The notes under the pieces were generated by a model. That model saw only the letters and a program-made list of their open reading frames with translations. It made no database searches and was not told where the DNA came from. The translations under genes and the position numbers were made by a program. From a virus, in the IMG/VR virus record IMGVR_UViG_3300032080_000001, positions 59,874 through 123,873 of that record: a stretch of 64,000 nt of DNA; one strand, given 5' to 3'. Positions 32,671 to 60,598 of this stretch are shown one piece after another (position 1 is the stretch's first letter; every line of letters begins with the position of its first letter).

Positions 32671-33108
32671 CGACTTCGTACGACCCGCCGGGTTGACAGA
32701 ATCGTACTGTACCGGTATATTACCGGCGTTGTGCGACTTCATGGGACGCGCCCGCTTCATCTTAAGCGTCCCCTACTTCGTACCGTGGATAACGGTACTG
32801 TACATACAGGACACCGGTCCGCTTCATACGGGCGGACCGGCTCCGATCACGTTGCGCGAGACATGCTGACGCCGACTGGAGTGCCTCTAGTCCTGAACCC
32901 CGCTGTACCGCGCGGCATGTCGTTCCAGCTTAACGGAAGCCTCGTCCTGAATCCCAAGGACGTTTACGATTTCGGCACGGTGTACATCGCCCCCGGCCTC
33001 TTGCAGCCGGAGGCATTGACAAATGCCGGTGACCCTATTAGCTTAACGGACGTAGCTGACTCGGCCACTTCACCCGAGCCAACTTCGACACCTGGGGAGA
33101 CGACGCGC

Positions 33109-34626
33109 ATGGCGAAGCAGAACGTAATGAAGGTTCCGAACCCGAGGACGGGTCAGGACGAGCCGCAGTTCATCGACGTGGAGTTCCACGGTGTCGTCGT
33201 CCCCCTGCTGGAAGTGCGGCGCGCCCTGCGCGGGGACAAGAAGCTGCGTCAGGAAGACATCGCCGCGCTGACCGCCAACTACACGCCGGACAAGCGCGCC
33301 CTGCACCAGACCTCGGTCAGCAACTATTTCCTCGGCAAGGTCCCGATGCACGACGCCGTAGTGTCGTTGCTGGAGGCGACCTTCACGCCCGCCGAGGCGC
33401 AGTCGATGGCGACGAAGAGCCCGCTGATGAGCGCGCCCGTCCCCACGCCGCAGGTCTCGGGCCTCACCACAGCGGACCTCGTGGACCCCAAGACGGCGGG
33501 CGTCCTGACGACCGCGATGCTGGAGCAGGCGGAGCAGGAGCGACAGAAGGCCCTACAGACCGGTCGCGTAAACACCGCGTCGCCCACGTTCCAGAACATC
33601 CCGGTACCGCGCACGGCGGGCGCCCCGGCCTTCGCGCAGACGCTATCCGCCGTGGGAGGGGGAGCGCCACTCTCGCCGGACGCCACGGTGGTGCCGCAGG
33701 CGCCGACCACGCAGACGCACACCGTCGCGGTCAAGGCGCTCCAGCCTTTCCCGATGGATAAGGCGCACGAGCTGGCGGCGGGCGTGCGCACGGCCGAGCG
33801 GAAGGGTGACGTGACGACCACGTTCTCGCTGCGCAAGCTGGTGGCGTGGGGTCGCGCGTACTACCTGCTCCAGCAGGAGGGCTACGACCCGAAGGAGGCG
33901 CTGTCCGGGGCGTTCCACCTCGCCGCCGAGGGCAAGACCTACGGCGAGGACCGCACGTTCCTCAAGAACCTGTTTCAGGCCAAGTTCGGCTTCGAGAGCA
34001 AGCCGCCGCGCGAGAACTCTCGCGTGGCGCTGTCCGAGGGGCGCCACCCGATGTCCTACCTCATCGAGCCGCTGGTGCGTGAGGGCATGCACGTCTGGCT
34101 GCACGGACCGACCGGGGCGGGGAAGACGCACTCGGTGTTCGACATCGCCGCGCGCCTCAACCGCAAGGTGGTCCGCTTTCAGGGCAAGGGGGACGCGACC
34201 ACGGACGACTTTGTGGGTGGCTTCGGGCTCAAGAGCGAGAACGGCGCGTCGGTGACGGAGTTCCAGTACGGCCCGCTTCCGAAGGCGATGATGGAGGGGT
34301 CCCTGCTGAACATTGACGAAATCACGACCCTCCCGGCCGAGGTGCTCTTCGAGTTGCAGGCGGTGCTGGAGGGCAAGCCGCTGGTTCTTACGAAGAACCG
34401 GGGTGAGGAGATTCTCCCTGCCCCCGGCTTCGCGGTGGTGGCGGCCGACAACACGCTCGGCCTCGGGGAGGCCCCGGCCTACGTCGGGACCAACGTGATG
34501 AACGAGGCGTTCCGCGACCGCTTCTTCTTCATCGAGTACGGCTACATGCCTGACGCGATGGAGAAGCGGGCCCTGAAAAGCGAACTGGAGGCGTTCTTCA
34601 ACCCGCGCGGGTGGGCGGTGGCCTGA
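33109..34626 (+). CDS. CobS/CbbQ/NirQ-type MoxR AAA+ ATPase with N-terminal HTH (longer isoform possible from ATG 32863)
   Basis: GPTGAGKT, LNIDE, YGPL..AM, NEAFRDRF. Confidence 0.85.
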   Translation: MAKQNVMKVPNPRTGQDEPQFIDVEFHGVVVPLLEVRRALRGDKKLRQEDIAALTANYTPDKRALHQTSVSNYFLGKVPMHDAVVSLLEATFTPAEAQSMATKSPLMSAPVPTPQVSGLTTADLVDPKTAGVLTTAMLEQAEQERQKALQTGRVNTASPTFQNIPVPRTAGAPAFAQTLSAVGGGAPLSPDATVVPQAPTTQTHTVAVKALQPFPMDKAHELAAGVRTAERKGDVTTTFSLRKLVAWGRAYYLLQQEGYDPKEALSGAFHLAAEGKTYGEDRTFLKNLFQAKFGFESKPPRENSRVALSEGRHPMSYLIEPLVREGMHVWLHGPTGAGKTHSVFDIAARLNRKVVRFQGKGDATTDDFVGGFGLKSENGASVTEFQYGPLPKAMMEGSLLNIDEITTLPAEVLFELQAVLEGKPLVLTKNRGEEILPAPGFAVVAADNTLGLGEAPAYVGTNVMNEAFRDRFFFIEYGYMPDAMEKRALKSELEAFFNPRGWAVA

Positions 34627-35483
34627 TGGCGCTACGCGAGTGGACGAACACCACGCTGGTGTGGGGAGCGGTGGACCAGCCGCTCCTCCACCCGCACGGT
34701 CCGACCACCGTCGAGTGGCTGCGCTGGTTGCAGGCGCGGCGGCCGGACATCGTGCTGGAGTACCCCAACGGCGAACTTCACGGCAACGACTGACGAAAGG
34801 TTGACGATGCGCCCCACCCACACCGTCTCCGTTGGAGACCTGCAAGACTTCTCCTTCGAGACGACGCTGGCAAGCGGGCACAGCAAGCGAGGACGCAAGC
34901 ATCTGGTTGCCCGCACCGTCTTCCACGACGAAGGCTATGCCGTGACGGTGTTCGTGGTAAAAGTCGGAACGGAGGACGAGGGCGCCAGCACGCACCTGCA
35001 AGACGCGGTGGACATGTACAACGACCTCTGACGAAAGGCCGACGATGCAGGACGGATTCTACTGGTACACACAGCGCGGTAAAGACCGCACAGTCGTGAG
35101 AGTCGAAACCTCGACCGACCCCACGGAGGACGCGGGGCCGTGGGTGTACTTCCCCGGAGAAGACGGAGAGACACACATCGAGGAGCTGTGCGGGTCGTTC
35201 ACCGGCCCCCTCCAGCCGCCCACCTGACGAGAGGACGCTGATGGAACGCTTCGCCAAGATTGTGGAGACGGGGGACGCACAGGTTCTCTTCTTCATCGAG
35301 CACGACGCCGACAGTGACCGCACCCAGCTTCACCAGATGACCGTGGTGGACGGCGCGCAGGCGGACATGGCAATCGGCTTCGGAGGGGAGAACCAGTTCG
35401 AGCACGCGGTGGACATGCTGCGCAAGGCCGACGAAGAATACGCCTCCGACGTGGTGCGTGAGATTCGTAGAGTGCTCGCTTAA
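34625..35483 (+). other. Small hypothetical CDS (34625-34793, 34807-35031, 35045-35227, 35241-35483)
   Basis: GAAAGG/GAGG RBS-led ORFs. Confidence 0.55.
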
Positions 35484-35570
35484 CGCGAGGGTCAGTCCTT
35501 GACAAACGGGACTGACCCTATTAGCTTCTACCTCGTTCGCACGACGACTCGCAACCGGGAACCGATCAAC

Positions 35571-59318: not shown

Positions 59319-59338
59319 TCTCTCTCTCTCTCTCTCTC
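59319..59338. repeat. (TC)10 microsatellite
   Basis: Read directly from the sequence. Confidence 0.9.
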
Positions 59339-60376
59339 AAGAAAGCATCCGCGCATGAAACTCCGCATCTCTCTGGCCGTCGCCGCCGCGTCCGTGCTGC
59401 TGCTCTTCCTGCTGGTTGCCGCCGCGCCTCTGAGCCCGGTAGGGCCCGCACACCTGCTGCTCTGTGCGGCTCTGGCTGGCCTGTCGGCCGCGCTGTACTA
59501 CGGCGCAGAGTCGCAAGACGGGGCCTCGCAGACATGGACCCGCGCCGCCGCGCTGGCGACGGTGCACAGCGTCACAGACCTGTCCACGGGGGAGTGCGTC
59601 AAGTACAGCGTGCAGCGCGTGGCTCGCGACCGCCGGGGCCGGGTGCGCTGCACCGCCAAGCTGTGAACCGTACCCCTTGACAAAGGGGAATGACCCGTAT
59701 AGGTTGGATGCAGGCGGGGCGCACACGGCGCCCCGCGCTGACCCCCTGAGAAGGGAACCGCACCATGAACACGATCACTCGCGTAGCGCTGGCCGTCCTG
59801 TCCCTGCTGCTGGTCTACATGGTCGGCAGCGCGCCGCTAACGGCCTTCGGAGCAGGGCACGTGCTGCTCCTCTTTCTGGCCGTGGCGGGACTGGGTACCG
59901 CGCTCTACTACGGTATCGAGGTGACGGACGCAGAGCGGCGGCAGTAGCCGCACCCCTGCCCCGGTCCAACGCCCTAAGAAGCTGCGGACCGGGGGAGTTC
60001 AACCCCTGCCCCTGTTCAATCGCTTAAGGGCCCTTTTCCGGGGTAGGGGGATATAGTAGAGCATGAACGCAGGCAGCATGTAAGCCAGCAAACCAGCAAG
60101 CCAGCGCAGCGCGCGACGATTCGTGCGAACGCAGCAGCGCAGCACAGCAAGCACAGGCACACACTCACACCACACTGGAGCGCACCCTATGCTTACCCTC
60201 TGGCTACTGACCACGGCCGTGCTTACCGGTACCGTAGGGGTACCTCTGCTACGGGTGCTGGACAGGACGGCCGAGGTGTAGCCGCACCCCTTGACAAGTG
60301 CACCTGACCCGTATAAATTAGGTGCACGAACCACGCGGCGCACGCCGCACCACACTTCGCAACGGGGAGACGAACC

Positions 60377-60598
60377 ATGCACGACACGATCAACGGCTAC
60401 GACGGCGACAGCGAGTGCGAGGGTACGCTGGCGGGACTGAACGAGGACCAGCTGAACGACTACGAGGACGTGCTGTTGCGCGACTGGGAAGAGCAGGACG
60501 ACAGCGAATGGGATGCGCTGGAGGAAGCGTATGACGACGACGTGACCGACGCGTATCGCCAGACGCGCGAGTGGTTCGATACGGACGACAACGACTGA
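60377..60598 (+). CDS. Very acidic small protein (DNA-mimic candidate)
   Basis: 28 D/E of 73 aa, 3 R, no K; own promoter at 60291. Confidence 0.7.
   Translation: MHDTINGYDGDSECEGTLAGLNEDQLNDYEDVLLRDWEEQDDSEWDALEEAYDDDVTDAYRQTREWFDTDDND

What the first reader, a model, noticed from the sequence alone, without database searches (positions are those of the whole stretch)
32845..60391. GATC is purged from the window but kept at early-gene translation starts: a possible mRNA-timer system
Seen: by eye I found no GATC in 1-32,844 and only about 22 in the window (base composition predicts roughly 200); Ile after G is recoded to ATT or ATA. The survivors cluster in leaders or first codons of promoter-proximal genes. 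Seven read GATCAATG (54300, 55139, 55536, 55984, 57002, 58000, 58914), and 35564, 51091 and 56386 also lie 4-7 nt before an ATG. Others sit in 5' leaders (32845, 44705, 48458, 49433) or early codons (50225, 52395, 59773, 60388). Known: T4 RegB cuts GGAG in early-mRNA initiation regions to switch them off. Inference: GAUC may be a cleavage or repressor site that destroys host and pre-early mRNAs while sparing GAUC-free later mRNAs (candidate enzyme 41030-41425). Alternatives: extended pairing with the 16S tail (AGAAAGGAGGUGAUC), which fits the -5 copies but not those upstream of the RBS or inside CDS; or a GATC-methylation switch.
Basis: partly seen in the sequence, partly recalled or inferred. 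Interest (0 to 1): 0.88.

Follow-up and report, generated by a model that had tools for sequence, protein, structure and literature searches.

The report
GATC-core motif kept at early starts
A soil phage that has removed almost every GATC from its DNA keeps a seven-letter, one-strand motif containing GATC right at the ribosome start sites of its early genes, which points to an untested RNA-level control of early gene expression.

Summary
The window has 23 GATC (164-206 expected) and the whole 123,873-bp phage genome has 30 (340 expected). Codons are rewritten in all three frames to avoid the word. Survivors are not random. 15 of 30 share the sense-strand 7-mer [A/C]CGATCA (15 on +, 0 on -, P about 3e-14). 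14 of 30 lie within -10..+15 of a start codon (P about 6e-14). All seven ATCAATG in the genome read GATCAATG. The sites follow a family of at least 30 host-type promoters (TTGACA-17-TAnnTT). Inside the early genes GATC is purged (1 found, 9-15 expected), so the start-site copies are kept by selection.

Best reading (about 0.4): the purge is ordinary restriction-site avoidance, and the retained motif is an RNA element in early translation-initiation regions read by a trans-acting protein or nuclease, as with T4 RegA/RegB or mycobacteriophage start-associated sequences. Main rival (about 0.3): two-part pairing with the 16S rRNA 3' tail.

No close relatives or RNA data could be fetched. The scan's earlier phage notes describe the opposite pattern: early regions stripped of GATC.

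The parts
54300..54307 (+). GATCAATG at the start of the DUF7178 gene (54305-55042); flank reads CACGATCA
55139..55146 (+). GATCAATG at the start of ORF 55144-55482; flank ACCGATCA
55536..55543 (+). GATCAATG at the start of the DUF7296 gene (55541-55897). This is the second gene of its unit and has no promoter of its own
55984..55991 (+). GATCAATG at the start of ORF 55989-56321
56386..56394 (+). GATCAAATG at the start of ORF 56392-56709. Second gene of its unit, no promoter of its own
57002..57009 (+). GATCAATG at the start of ORF 57007-57612
58000..58007 (+). GATCAATG at the start of ORF 58005-58226
58914..58921 (+). GATCAATG at the start of ORF 58919-59305. The only spacer copy preceded by T (TGATCA)
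35564..35573 (+). GATCA, two bases, then the ATG of the CobT/VWA-like gene (35571-37751), downstream of the promoter at 35496
51091..51097 (+). GATC abutting ATG 51095, directly after GGGGGC. The only copy that nearly continues the SD (1x1 mismatch with the 16S tail, -15.3 kcal/mol)
41038..41041 (+). ACGATCA in codons 3-5 of gene 41030-41425
59773..59776 (+). ACGATCA in codons 3-5 of ORF 59765-59947 (small membrane protein)
60388..60391 (+). ACGATCA in codons 4-6 of ORF 60377-60598 (acidic protein)
50225..50228 (+). ATGATCG: GATC overlapping start codon 50223. GATCG type, not the 7-mer
44705..44708 (+). GCGATCA 8 nt after the -10 element of the promoter at 44666 (near the transcript 5' end), 38 nt before ATG 44743
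48458..48461 (+). CCGATCA in a leader, 25 nt before ATG 48483
49433..49436 (+). CCGATCA in a leader, directly before the SD AGAAAGG, 19 nt before ATG 49452
32845..32848 (+). CCGATCA just after a hairpin in the leader or 5' part of the AAA_5 (CobS-like) gene. The true start codon is uncertain
52395..52398 (+). CACGATCA at codons 15-16 of ORF 52351-52617
54433..54436 (+). Interior GATCG (Met-Ile-Ala) in the DUF7178 gene; likely a chance survivor. Sites 61577 (GATCG), 63059 and 61016 (GATCA, interior or unclear) are in the same class
52907..60320 (+). Ten 'class II' promoter-leader cassettes starting at 52907, 53748, 54214, 55050, 55899, 56909, 57912, 58824, 59674 and 60288. Form: CCCTTGACAA-N7-TGACCC-GTATAnnTT, that is -35 TTGACA, 17 nt, -10 TAnnTT. 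Leaders are about 55-65 nt with a GC-rich 5' hairpin. Eight of the ten are followed by GATC; 52907 and 53748 carry GAGC at the aligned place
1635..52290 (+). 'Class I' copies of the same promoter family (TGACCC-TATTAnnTT type) in the window, at 1635, 6792, 25031, 30024, 35496, 37808, 39824, 40797, 43209, 44666, 46503, 46993, 48410, 49370, 50147, 51002 and 52258. One copy lies on the - strand at 52206-52237
41030..41425 (+).
41422..41628 (+). 68-codon ORF whose ATG overlaps the stop of 41030-41425 (ATGA). A possible immunity partner, untested

Best explanation
Two layers.

(1) The genome-wide loss of GATC is DNA-level avoidance of a GATC-specific host defence, most simply a restriction enzyme. 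This is inferred, not shown.

(2) Against that pressure the phage keeps a sense-strand element, [A/C]CGAUCA, in the 5' regions of mRNAs made from its host-type (sigma-70-like) promoters. Most often GAUCA abuts the AUG. I think this is an RNA operator or cleavage site read by a trans-acting protein, phage or host. By binding or cutting inside the ribosome-binding region, that factor would switch off or tune translation of this early gene class as a group. The manner would be that of T4 RegA (repressor on initiation regions) or RegB (nuclease in the SD).

Shown: the motif, its strand, its placement, its gene class, and that it is kept by selection. Inferred: that it acts in RNA, and that a factor reads it.

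The broader statement, that it is an RNA-level start-associated element of early genes, I put near 0.75. The trans-factor mechanism specifically I put near 0.4.
For: Purge:
- 30 GATC against 340 expected genome-wide, and recoding in all three frames.

Selection for the survivors:
- Inside the 13 class II early CDS (first 6 codons skipped; 4,950 nt) there is 1 GATC against 9.3-14.8 expected. Ten of the region's 11 GATC sit at -6..+14 of starts.

One element, one strand:
- [A/C]CGATCA occurs 15 times on + and 0 times on -. Flank probability is 0.037 per site, P 2.9e-14.
- GATCA 20, GATCG 10, GATCC 0, GATCT 0.
- 144 of 156 roughly called ORFs are on +.

The same 7-mer occurs at non-spacer places where pairing with rRNA cannot position the start codon:
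- codons 3-6 (41038, 59773, 60388) and codon 15 (52395);
- leaders upstream of the SD (48458, 49433, 32845).

Class restriction:
- All 15 copies lie in window 32,843-60,386, in the non-structural part that carries the promoter family. No copy lies at a structural-gene start.
- 16 of at least 30 + strand promoters (20 plus 10 further) are followed by a GATC in the leader or the first 16 codons.

Not only a copied cassette:
- In the alignment of ten class II cassettes, the invariant columns are the promoter, one G, and G-A-(T/G)-C.
- Two motif-bearing starts (55536, 56386) have no promoter cassette.

Accessibility (weak, no shuffle control):
- In 10 of 15 folded leaders, at least 4 of the 6 motif positions have unpaired probability of 0.5 or more.

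Precedents (passages read):
- RegB cuts GGAG in early initiation regions and has a RelE/YoeB-like fold. RegA binds about 30 initiation regions at or just 5' of the AUG (PMC3014915).
- Cluster K start-associated sequences are asymmetric, in one orientation, 3-7 bp before mostly ATG starts, and confined to the non-structural half (PMC3203893).

A possible reader:
- The phage encodes a protein with weak RelE/BrnT/DUF4258-like features.
Against: - No factor is identified and nothing ties the 41030 protein to GAUC.
- Its structural matches are weak (best Z 5.2, mixed with cystatin-fold rows; the tool warns that Z under 8 may be only a common arrangement). Foldseek found nothing at E of 0.001 or better. 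Pfam DUF4258 matched only 1 of 59 homologues, at E 0.0026.
- No RegA or RegB family match in the genome, though those two searches had no positive control.
- The exact register GATCA|ATG in 7 copies suits a geometric role on the ribosome at least as well as a nuclease site.
- In all ten spacer copies GAUC can pair with the GAUC of the 16S tail, worth 2.2-2.6 kcal/mol.
- No close relative could be read, so there is no test of conservation. The one large relative read (G001) has no GATC at all, so the element is not a trait of the wider clade.
- Start codons were chosen by my own rough rules and three were added by hand.
- The host, and therefore its restriction systems, is unknown.
Confidence: 0.4

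Rival explanations
1. Two-part Shine-Dalgarno. GAUC at -5..-2 pairs with the GAUC at the 5' side of the single-stranded 16S rRNA 3' tail, while a weak purine tract (GGAG, GAAAG, GAAAGG) pairs with the 3' side. Together they give host-specific, precisely registered start selection for early genes that must compete with host mRNAs.
For: - RNAduplex of 20 initiation regions against the tail (reverse complement of the string in the finding) pairs GAUC with GAUC in all 10 spacer copies. An in-script GAUC-to-GAUU control loses 2.2-2.6 kcal/mol in those 10 and 0-0.1 in the other 10.
- Site 51091 is a nearly continuous match, GGGGG-C-GAUC (-15.3 kcal/mol).
- The SD cores of these genes are weak: -3.5 to -6.9 kcal/mol without GAUC in 7 of 10.
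- The spacing to ATG is fixed, and every such start is ATG.
- Start-codon-proximal extended SD-antiSD helices that set start choice were shown by cryo-EM and toeprinting in S. aureus (PMC13009471, passages).
- From my recall of 16S numbering and of Chen et al. 1994 (not read), GAUC at -5..-2 is in the register of a full-length SD at optimal aligned spacing.
Against: - The pairing is interrupted by internal loops of 2-6 nt in 9 of 10 copies.
- The conserved flanks do not extend the pairing. C at -6 in 9 of 10 faces an A, where U would pair. GATCC never occurs.
- The same 7-mer sits at 7 to 8 places where this cannot work: upstream of the SD, or at +8 to +44.
- It is absent from every late, presumably highly expressed, gene.
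- The same gain in energy was available from a longer GATC-free core SD, without paying the cost that removed GATC elsewhere.
- Class II genes 52996 and 53826 have equally weak SDs (-5.3 and -4.9) and no GATC.
Confidence: 0.3
2. The phage, or its clade, makes a GAUC-specific endoribonuclease that destroys host and early mRNAs. The genome-wide purge is self-immunity of later mRNAs at the RNA level, not restriction avoidance.
For: - The motif is in transcript sense and lies in early 5' regions.
- A RelE/BrnT/DUF4258-like candidate is encoded, with an ATGA-coupled small ORF behind it.
- RNA-repair genes (RNA ligase, RtcB) and a tmRNA are present.
- A complete GATC purge recurs among the nearest capsid relatives across 42-68% GC. 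It is zero in 5 of the 10 nearest loci, and zero against 270 expected in a 183,650-bp record. The 70 more distant loci have a median ratio of 1.03. This fits a lineage-borne cause as well as shared host defences.
Against: - GATC is a palindrome, so the purge gives no strand information.
- The 10 GATCG survivors sit in late and early coding sequence alike.
- The profile of the 41030 family is absent from G001, G002 and G005 (all three are incomplete records).
- Complete loss of a 4-base restriction site is a known outcome of restriction or repair avoidance. For example, phiX174 is devoid of GATC (PMC5014478, abstract only).
- No RNA data exist.
Confidence: 0.1
3. A DNA-level site. The asymmetric CGATCA is bound, methylated or nicked in DNA. 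It could be a methylation-sensitive switch, a roadblock for RNA polymerase, or a strand-specific nick site.
For: - A fixed orientation also fits an asymmetric DNA site.
- In class II units the motif lies at a fairly constant 54-69 nt from the -10 element.
- Two further GATC lie 28 bp apart in an intergenic stretch near repeats that another reader took for an origin (note e1-6150312, not checked by me).
Against: - No Dam (PF02086, PF05869), N6/N4 methyltransferase (PF01555) or MutH/Sau3AI (PF02976) match in the phage. The controls rang in other genomes.
- The sites are not in promoters or operators. They track the start codon to the nucleotide, also in the two genes without a promoter of their own.
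- The distance to the promoter varies from 8 to 106 nt overall.
Confidence: 0.08
4. No function of its own. GATCAATG is inherited from one ancestral promoter-leader-start cassette that was copied many times and has not yet been purged.
For: - The class II units are clearly copies of one cassette.
- Two of them carry GAGC in place of GATC at the aligned position.
Against: - Between the promoter and the motif the ten cassettes have diverged almost completely, while the motif is exact in 7.
- The adjoining coding sequence has been purged (1 against 9-15 expected), and a non-coding spacer is the easiest place to lose a site.
- The motif also occurs at starts without a cassette (55536, 56386) and in class I leaders with unrelated sequence.
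Confidence: 0.07

Closest known systems
Start-associated sequences (SAS/ESAS) of Cluster K mycobacteriophages (Pope et al. 2011, PMC3203893; passages read)
   Same: - A short asymmetric motif, in one orientation only.
- It lies a few bases before start codons that are mostly ATG.
- It is confined to the non-structural half of the genome and sits in front of unrelated gene families.
- About half have an upstream inverted repeat (ESAS). Here, a GC-rich 5' hairpin precedes the class II copies.
- The function is unknown, and the authors leave open a host or phage RNA or protein reader.
   Different: - The SAS is a 13-mer that contains the SD core AGGAG and occupies the RBS position. The motif here is 7 nt, lies between the SD and the ATG (or elsewhere in the 5' region) and has no SD core.
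- The motif here is built on a word that the rest of the genome has eliminated.
- There is no sequence likeness.
T4 RegB endoribonuclease target sites (review PMC3014915, passages; PMC1702504, abstract in listing)
   Same: - A short RNA word in the translation-initiation regions of early mRNAs, sometimes also inside coding sequence.
- Later mRNAs are spared.
- The nuclease has a RelE/YoeB-like fold. The phage here encodes a protein with weak likeness to that fold class.
   Different: - RegB cuts GGAG, which is the SD itself, within an 11-nt consensus, and needs ribosomal protein S1.
- Here the word is GAUCA, next to the AUG.
- No RegB family match (no positive control).
- No cleavage has been shown.
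T4 RegA translational operators (PMC3014915, passages)
   Same: - One repressor for about 30 early mRNAs.
- Sites overlap the AUG or lie just 5' of it, and are unstructured.
- GAUCAAUG could be such an operator that includes the AUG.
   Different: - RegA sites are A+U-rich and poorly conserved. Here the motif is exact and G+C-containing.
- No RegA family match (no positive control).
Extended, start-codon-proximal SD-antiSD helices (S. aureus; PMC13009471, passages)
   Same: Bases between the core SD and the start codon pair with the 5' side of the 16S tail and fix start choice in a species-specific way.
   Different: - There the helix is continuous with the SD. Here it is split by an unpaired CAC(C) loop.
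- The flanks are conserved but not complementary.
- The same motif recurs outside the spacer.
Restriction- or repair-site avoidance of GATC in phages (phiX174 devoid of GATC, PMC5014478, abstract; general avoidance of palindromic R-M sites, PMC4687349, listing only)
   Same: Near-total loss of a 4-base palindrome, carried out by synonymous recoding.
   Different: A defined subset of sites is kept under selection at gene starts. The scan's earlier T5-like cases (e1-179886, e1-519090; not checked by me) show the opposite: early regions with extra purging.

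Membership tests
Restriction-site avoidance (GATC) | Word far below a Markov expectation | tested here: met
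   23 against 163.7 in the window, lowest of 256 tetramers. 30 against 339.5 in the genome.
Restriction-site avoidance (GATC) | Loss achieved by synonymous recoding in every reading frame | tested here: met
   Ile ATC after G is 15% against 82-90% otherwise. Asp GAT before C is 0.4% against 11-15%. nGA+TC occurs in 4 of 495.
Restriction-site avoidance (GATC) | Host carries a GATC-specific nuclease | not testable with these tools
   Host unknown. No prophage relative in 185,579 species genomes. The phage itself has no Dam or MutH/Sau3AI match.
Start-associated sequences (Cluster K type) | Asymmetric motif in a single orientation | tested here: met
   [A/C]CGATCA occurs 15 times on + and 0 times on -.
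Start-associated sequences (Cluster K type) | Lies within a few bases upstream of start codons, mostly ATG | tested here: met
   10 copies start 4-7 nt before an ATG, 7 of them in the identical register. However, 8 further GATCA copies lie elsewhere in 5' regions.
Start-associated sequences (Cluster K type) | Restricted to the non-structural part of the genome | tested here: met
   All 15 copies lie in window 32,843-60,386. There is none in the structural half.
Start-associated sequences (Cluster K type) | Contains the SD core and matches the 13-mer consensus | tested here: not met
   The motif has no AGGAG and lies 3' of the SD. It is therefore an analogue, not a member.
Start-associated sequences (Cluster K type) | Conserved across related phages in front of different gene families | not testable with these tools
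   The closest relatives are known only as proteins. IMG/VR and JGI scans found no relative with this promoter.
T4 RegB system | RegB-family nuclease encoded | tested here: inconclusive
   PF10715 gave no match, but nothing rang in any control genome. A RelE/BrnT-like protein exists, at Z 5.2 or lower.
T4 RegB system | Target word is GGAG in the SD | tested here: not met
   The conserved word is GAUCA, between the SD and the AUG.
T4 RegB system | Cleavage of early mRNAs at the word | not testable with these tools
   No RNA run holds this phage.
T4 RegA system | RegA-family repressor encoded | tested here: inconclusive
   PF01818 gave no match, and no control rang.
Extended SD-antiSD pairing | Complementarity to the 16S 3' tail 5' of the core antiSD | tested here: met
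   GAUC pairs with GAUC in all 10 spacer copies, worth 2.2-2.6 kcal/mol. The tail sequence was taken from the string in the finding, not from the unknown host.
Extended SD-antiSD pairing | Helix continuous with the core SD | tested here: not met
   Internal loops of 2-6 nt in 9 of 10 copies. Only 51091 is nearly continuous.
Dam/GATC methylation switch | GATC within a promoter or regulator-binding site, and a GATC methyltransferase present | tested here: not met
   Sites lie 8-106 nt downstream of the -10 element and track the ATG. There is no D12, Dam or N6/N4 methyltransferase in the phage. A host methyltransferase cannot be excluded.
BECR / RelE-like RNase toxins (DUF4258) for the protein 41030-41425 | Fold: helices followed by a four-stranded antiparallel sheet, matching solved members | tested here: inconclusive
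   The AF2 model has pLDDT 94.1 and shows H21-33, H42-49 and four strands. VIA-align gives BrnT Z 5.2, RelE 4.8 and MqsR 4.7, mixed with cystatins. Foldseek gave no match at E of 0.001 or better. The Atlas gives TM 0.66 to a cluster that is 85% DUF4258.
BECR / RelE-like RNase toxins (DUF4258) for the protein 41030-41425 | Profile match to the family | tested here: not met
   Pfam gave no family for the protein. DUF4258 matched 1 of 59 homologues, at E 0.0026.
BECR / RelE-like RNase toxins (DUF4258) for the protein 41030-41425 | Conserved acid/base residues | tested here: inconclusive
   H43, E72, R87, T109 and H119 are invariant in 59 sequences. Their positions in an active site were not examined.

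The most novel reading that the evidence does not exclude
The phage, and perhaps its whole capsid clade, runs a GAUC-based RNA clock. A phage RNase, possibly the RelE/DUF4258-like 41030 protein held in check by the small ATGA-coupled ORF, cuts GAUC(A). This would destroy host messages and switch off the phage's own early messages at their ribosome-binding sites. Middle and late messages would be immune because the word has been written out of them. The near-total GATC purge seen in this lineage across 42-68% GC would then be self-immunity to its own nuclease, not escape from host restriction.
Probability: 0.1. Interest if true: 0.9.

Novelty: new variant of a known kind. Interest (0 to 1): 0.6.

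Why it matters
- Start-associated sequences in phages have been known since 2011 without a mechanism. Here one is built on a word that the rest of the genome has eliminated, which gives an unusually clean natural proof of positive selection: 1 copy inside the early genes, 10 at their starts.
- It also gives a simple experimental handle. A single-base change should either weaken ribosome binding or abolish a timed shutoff.
- If a factor reads GAUCA, this would be a second worked example, after T4 RegA/RegB, of class-wide post-transcriptional shutoff of early genes, in an uncultured soil lineage.
- If instead the 16S tail reads it, it extends the recent finding that start-proximal extended SD pairing sets host-specific start choice.
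- In either case it shows that counts of restriction-site avoidance can hide functional exceptions.

Tried and rejected
Relatives:
- Megablast of two 10-kb pieces against 50,697 phage records found no match.
- The capsid protein is a distant gp23 type; all 1,273 matching phage records are below 60% identity.
This is the main gap.
- A scan of IMG/VR with the DUF7178 early protein gave 14 loci at 39% identity or less. The scan with the CobT-like protein gave none. The scan with a capsid alignment gave 80 loci at 45% or less.
- The promoter pattern gave only single, probably chance, matches in IMG/VR (12 contigs) and in JGI metagenomes (2 contigs).
- The scan of species genomes with the capsid alignment found no relative, so the host is unknown.

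RNA evidence:
- No RNA holder was listed; the only run is the probable source DNA.
- Laying that run's contigs at 80% likeness showed only the source contig and short unrelated pieces, with no variants.

Protein binding:
- Complex prediction of the 41030 protein with the 68-aa downstream ORF gave no verdict (score 0.00, controls not run).

Rfam:
- At gathering thresholds the window holds only the tmRNA and two tRNAs.

Terminator-like sites:
- They are at chance level in 50,000-64,000 (11 against 9.3 +/- 3.2).

Ideas dropped:
- IHF site, rrn-type boxA, the RNA polymerase pause consensus and extended pairing with initiator tRNA were compared by eye from memory and do not fit.
- A phage antisense RNA: only the TGATCG survivors could pair. 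None carries the complementary extended flank (0 of 7 are TGATCGK). The 9-nt match between the site at genome 1232 and sites 44705 and 59773 may be chance.
- Type III-style strand bias of CGATCA (18 against 7) does not explain the placement at starts.
- Recent import of the early region is rejected, because its coding sequence is itself purged.

Corrections and limits:
- I had recalled that subcluster B3 mycobacteriophages lack GATC. The paper says the opposite: a four-fold excess (PMC4841201, passages). I make no such claim.
- Supplementary files of papers were closed. SAS site tables in supplements of PMC3203893 were not seen.
- I searched the paper library for 'start associated sequences' plus 'bacteriophage' (3 papers) and for GATC avoidance terms. 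I saw no report of a GATC-core motif kept at starts in a GATC-purged phage. These few searches do not show that none exists.

Full report
What the DNA is. The window is the second half (59,874-123,873) of a 123,873-bp virus record from a soil metagenome. The two ends of the record are identical over 127 bases. I take that as an assembly overlap of a circular or permuted genome; this is inference. G+C is 65%. A rough GC3-based gene call gives 156 ORFs, 144 of them on the + strand. The capsid protein is a distant T4 gp23 type, below 60% identity to all 1,273 matching phage records. There is no nucleotide match to any of 50,697 phage records.

The window encodes these recognisable functions:
- a class II ribonucleotide reductase;
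- an RNA ligase and RtcB;
- a tmRNA and two tRNAs;
- a CobS/CobT-like pair;
- a thioredoxin-reductase-like protein;
- a tyrosine recombinase.

The purge. GATC occurs 23 times in the window, against 206 expected from composition and 164 from a Markov model. It is the most depleted of all 256 tetramers (ratio 0.14; next is CTAG at 0.42). There is none in 1-32,844. Genome-wide the count is 30 against 340.
- Ile following a G is ATC in 15% of cases, against 82-90% otherwise.
- Asp before C is GAT in 0.4%, against 11-15%.
- nGA+TC occurs 4 times in 495.

The survivors fall into two populations. Ten are GATCG. They are scattered through late and early coding sequence, typically as nnG-ATC-Gnn, the commonest coding context, and I take them as chance survivors. 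Twenty are GATCA. GATCC and GATCT never occur. Fifteen of the twenty share the 7-mer [A/C]CGATCA, always on the + strand and never on the - strand. The flank probability is 0.037 per site, giving P 2.9e-14. All fifteen lie between 32,843 and 60,386.

Placement of the survivors:
- Ten GATC start 4-7 nt before an ATG. Seven are the identical GATCAATG, and these seven are the only ATCAATG in the genome (0.036 expected, P 1.4e-14).
- Four are in codons 1-5.
- Three or four are in leaders upstream of the SD.
- One is at codon 15.
- In all, 14 of 30 lie within -10..+15 of a called start, a zone that is 3.06% of the genome (P 5.9e-14).
- GATCA is the commonest pentamer in front of starts (7 of 146).

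The starts come from my own rough rules, and three were added by hand. However, each GATCAATG opens an ORF of 73-245 codons behind a promoter or a preceding gene.

The gene class. The sites follow a repeat family, CCCTTGACAA-N7-TGACCC-N5-nnTT. This is a -35 TTGACA, a 17-nt spacer and a -10 TAnnTT. There are 20 copies in 40,000-64,000 and 10 more further upstream in the genome. All are on the + strand, and there is one copy on the - strand. None lies in the structural region before genome position 39,264. A generic sigma-70 scan of 50,000-64,000 finds 8 sites against 1.5 +/- 1.1 in shuffles.

Two sub-types of promoter exist. The last ten (52,907-60,320; GTATA type) head short units of one or two small genes. 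Their leaders are 55-65 nt, and in 9 of 10 minimum-energy folds they begin with a GC-rich hairpin (no shuffle control). Eight of these ten units, plus two promoter-less second genes, carry the motif. Sixteen of at least 30 promoters overall are followed by a GATC in the leader or the first 16 codons. Of the early proteins tested, two match DUF7178 and DUF7296 and the rest match nothing or only PHROGs of unknown function. DUF7178 homologues lie near genome ends of podoviruses such as SIO1.

Kept by selection. Inside the 13 class II coding sequences there is 1 GATC where 9-15 are expected, while their start regions hold 10. So the purge has acted on this region, and it spared exactly the places where a site could be lost most easily. 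The ten class II cassettes have diverged almost completely between promoter and motif. The invariant columns are the promoter, one G, and G-A-x-C. Two cassettes (52,907 and 53,748) have GAGC at that place.

Mechanism. The element is oriented with transcription and tracks the start codon, so an RNA-level role in translation initiation is the best-supported class (about 0.75). Within that class there are two readings.

(a) A trans-acting reader, either a repressor or a nuclease. In its favour:
- The same extended 7-mer appears at eight places where rRNA pairing could not position the AUG.
- The conserved flanks do not extend rRNA pairing. C faces A at -6 in 9 of 10 copies, and GATCC never occurs.
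- The motif is limited to one temporal class.
- A stronger GATC-free SD was always available.

(b) Two-part pairing with the 16S tail. In its favour:
- In all ten spacer copies the duplex model pairs GAUC with the GAUC of the tail, worth 2.2-2.6 kcal/mol.
- The core SDs are weak.
- The register to the ATG is exact.
- Start-proximal extended SD helices that fix start choice are now documented in S. aureus (PMC13009471).

I rank (a) at 0.4 and (b) at 0.3. A DNA-level site is less likely (0.08). The phage has no Dam, N6/N4 methyltransferase or MutH/Sau3AI match, with positive controls in other genomes, and the sites are not in promoters. A neutral relic of cassette copying is unlikely (0.07).

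The candidate enzyme. The 131-aa product of 41,030-41,425 has no Pfam family. An exhaustive search found 96 homologues, and I aligned 58 of them with the query. Five residues are invariant (H43, E72, R87, T109, H119). The AlphaFold model is confident (pLDDT 94.1). Foldseek found nothing significant in the PDB. The wide structural search puts the RNase toxins BrnT (Z 5.2), RelE (4.8) and MqsR (4.7) on top, but at scores the tool itself calls inconclusive, and they are mixed with cystatin folds. The ESM Atlas model aligns at TM 0.66 to a cluster that is 85% DUF4258. A 2026 preprint places DUF4258 among colicin-like BECR RNases (10.64898/2026.08.28.747851, passages). A 68-codon ORF overlaps the gene's stop codon by ATGA. 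So an RNase-toxin-like protein is plausible. However, nothing connects it to GAUC, and its profile is absent from the three relatives I could read.

The wider clade. Among the ten IMG/VR loci with the most similar capsid genes (31-45% identity):
- Five have no GATC at all.
- One has 8 against 57 expected.
- Four are not, or only mildly, depleted.
- The 70 more distant loci have a median ratio of 1.03.

Read in full, one relative of 183,650 bp (41% G+C) has 0 GATC against 270 expected, and also 6 GCGC against 99. Another, of 23,867 bp (68% G+C), has 0 against 62. The purge therefore recurs in this lineage across very different compositions, but keeping the motif at starts does not: G001 has no GATC anywhere.

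Comparison with the known. The nearest described thing is the start-associated sequence of Cluster K mycobacteriophages. It has the same logic of orientation, placement, ATG preference and restriction to the non-structural half, and an upstream inverted repeat in about half the cases (PMC3203893). It differs in sequence, length and position relative to the SD, so the element here is an analogue, not a member. In terms of how it might work, the nearest are T4 RegA and RegB (PMC3014915). What is new is that a functional start-linked motif coincides with a word under genome-wide purge. The scan's earlier T5-like cases show the reverse pattern (not checked by me).

Verdict. The element is a new variant of a known kind. 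Interest is 0.6.

Noticed in passing
window 1635-60320 (and genome 39264-44933): A family of at least 30 + strand host-type promoters with an unusually long shared frame, CCCTTGACAA-N7-TGACCC, in two sub-types: TATTAnnTT and GTATAnnTT. One copy lies on the - strand at 52206-52237. None lies in the structural region.
   Followed up: partly
window 52940-60350: In 9 of 10 minimum-energy folds, class II leaders start with a GC-rich hairpin whose loop and 5' arm repeat GCAC(A/G)CG. The arrangement is reminiscent of the ESAS inverted repeats of Cluster K phages or of 5' stabiliser hairpins.
   Followed up: partly
window 41030-41628: A possible RNase-toxin-like gene (weak RelE/BrnT/DUF4258 likeness, five invariant residues) with a 68-codon ORF coupled by an ATGA overlap. 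It sits behind its own promoter and a 216-nt leader that holds a strong hairpin and TACCGGTA-like boxes.
   Followed up: partly
window 58533-58688 and 59296-59331: A - strand copy of the promoter (58688-58661) points into a (GA)n / GGGGAAAGGGGAGAG tract (58533-58568). Its leftward transcript would therefore carry a long antiSD-like CU-rich run. The tract is also an inverted repeat of 59296-59331. The 600-nt stretch 58227-58823 has no convincing ORF.
   Followed up: no
L118-L127 (G001), L128-L129 (G002), L035-L040: Complete absence of GATC in several capsid relatives of very different G+C. G001 has 0 against 270 expected and also GCGC at 6 against 99. G002 has 0 against 62.
   Followed up: partly
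genome 1232 and 1260 (outside the window): Two TGATCG sites 28 bp apart in an intergenic stretch, next to repeats that another reader took for iterons. The first is the reverse complement of the 9-mer shared by window sites 44705 and 59773.
   Followed up: no
window 6792-49452: Many middle-region genes share another start cassette, (G)ACGAAAGG-N6-7-ATG, often ending ACG-ATG. Each promoter class seems to have its own flavour of initiation region.
   Followed up: no
window 51620-51782: Three direct repeats of GCCAGCTTCATAC, 63-70 bp apart, in a stretch without a called gene. TTCATAC also forms the loop of the hairpin just before the GATC at 32845.
   Followed up: no
window 17816-26441: The phage carries a tmRNA, tRNA-Lys(CTT), tRNA-Leu(CAA), an RNA ligase and RtcB. 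Together these form an RNA-repair and ribosome-rescue set that may answer host anticodon nucleases.
   Followed up: no
window 32691-32722 and 52290-52310: TACCGGTA-type boxes (noted by other readers) sit directly on or after the -10 element of some of these promoters, as expected of an operator for a phage regulator.
   Followed up: no
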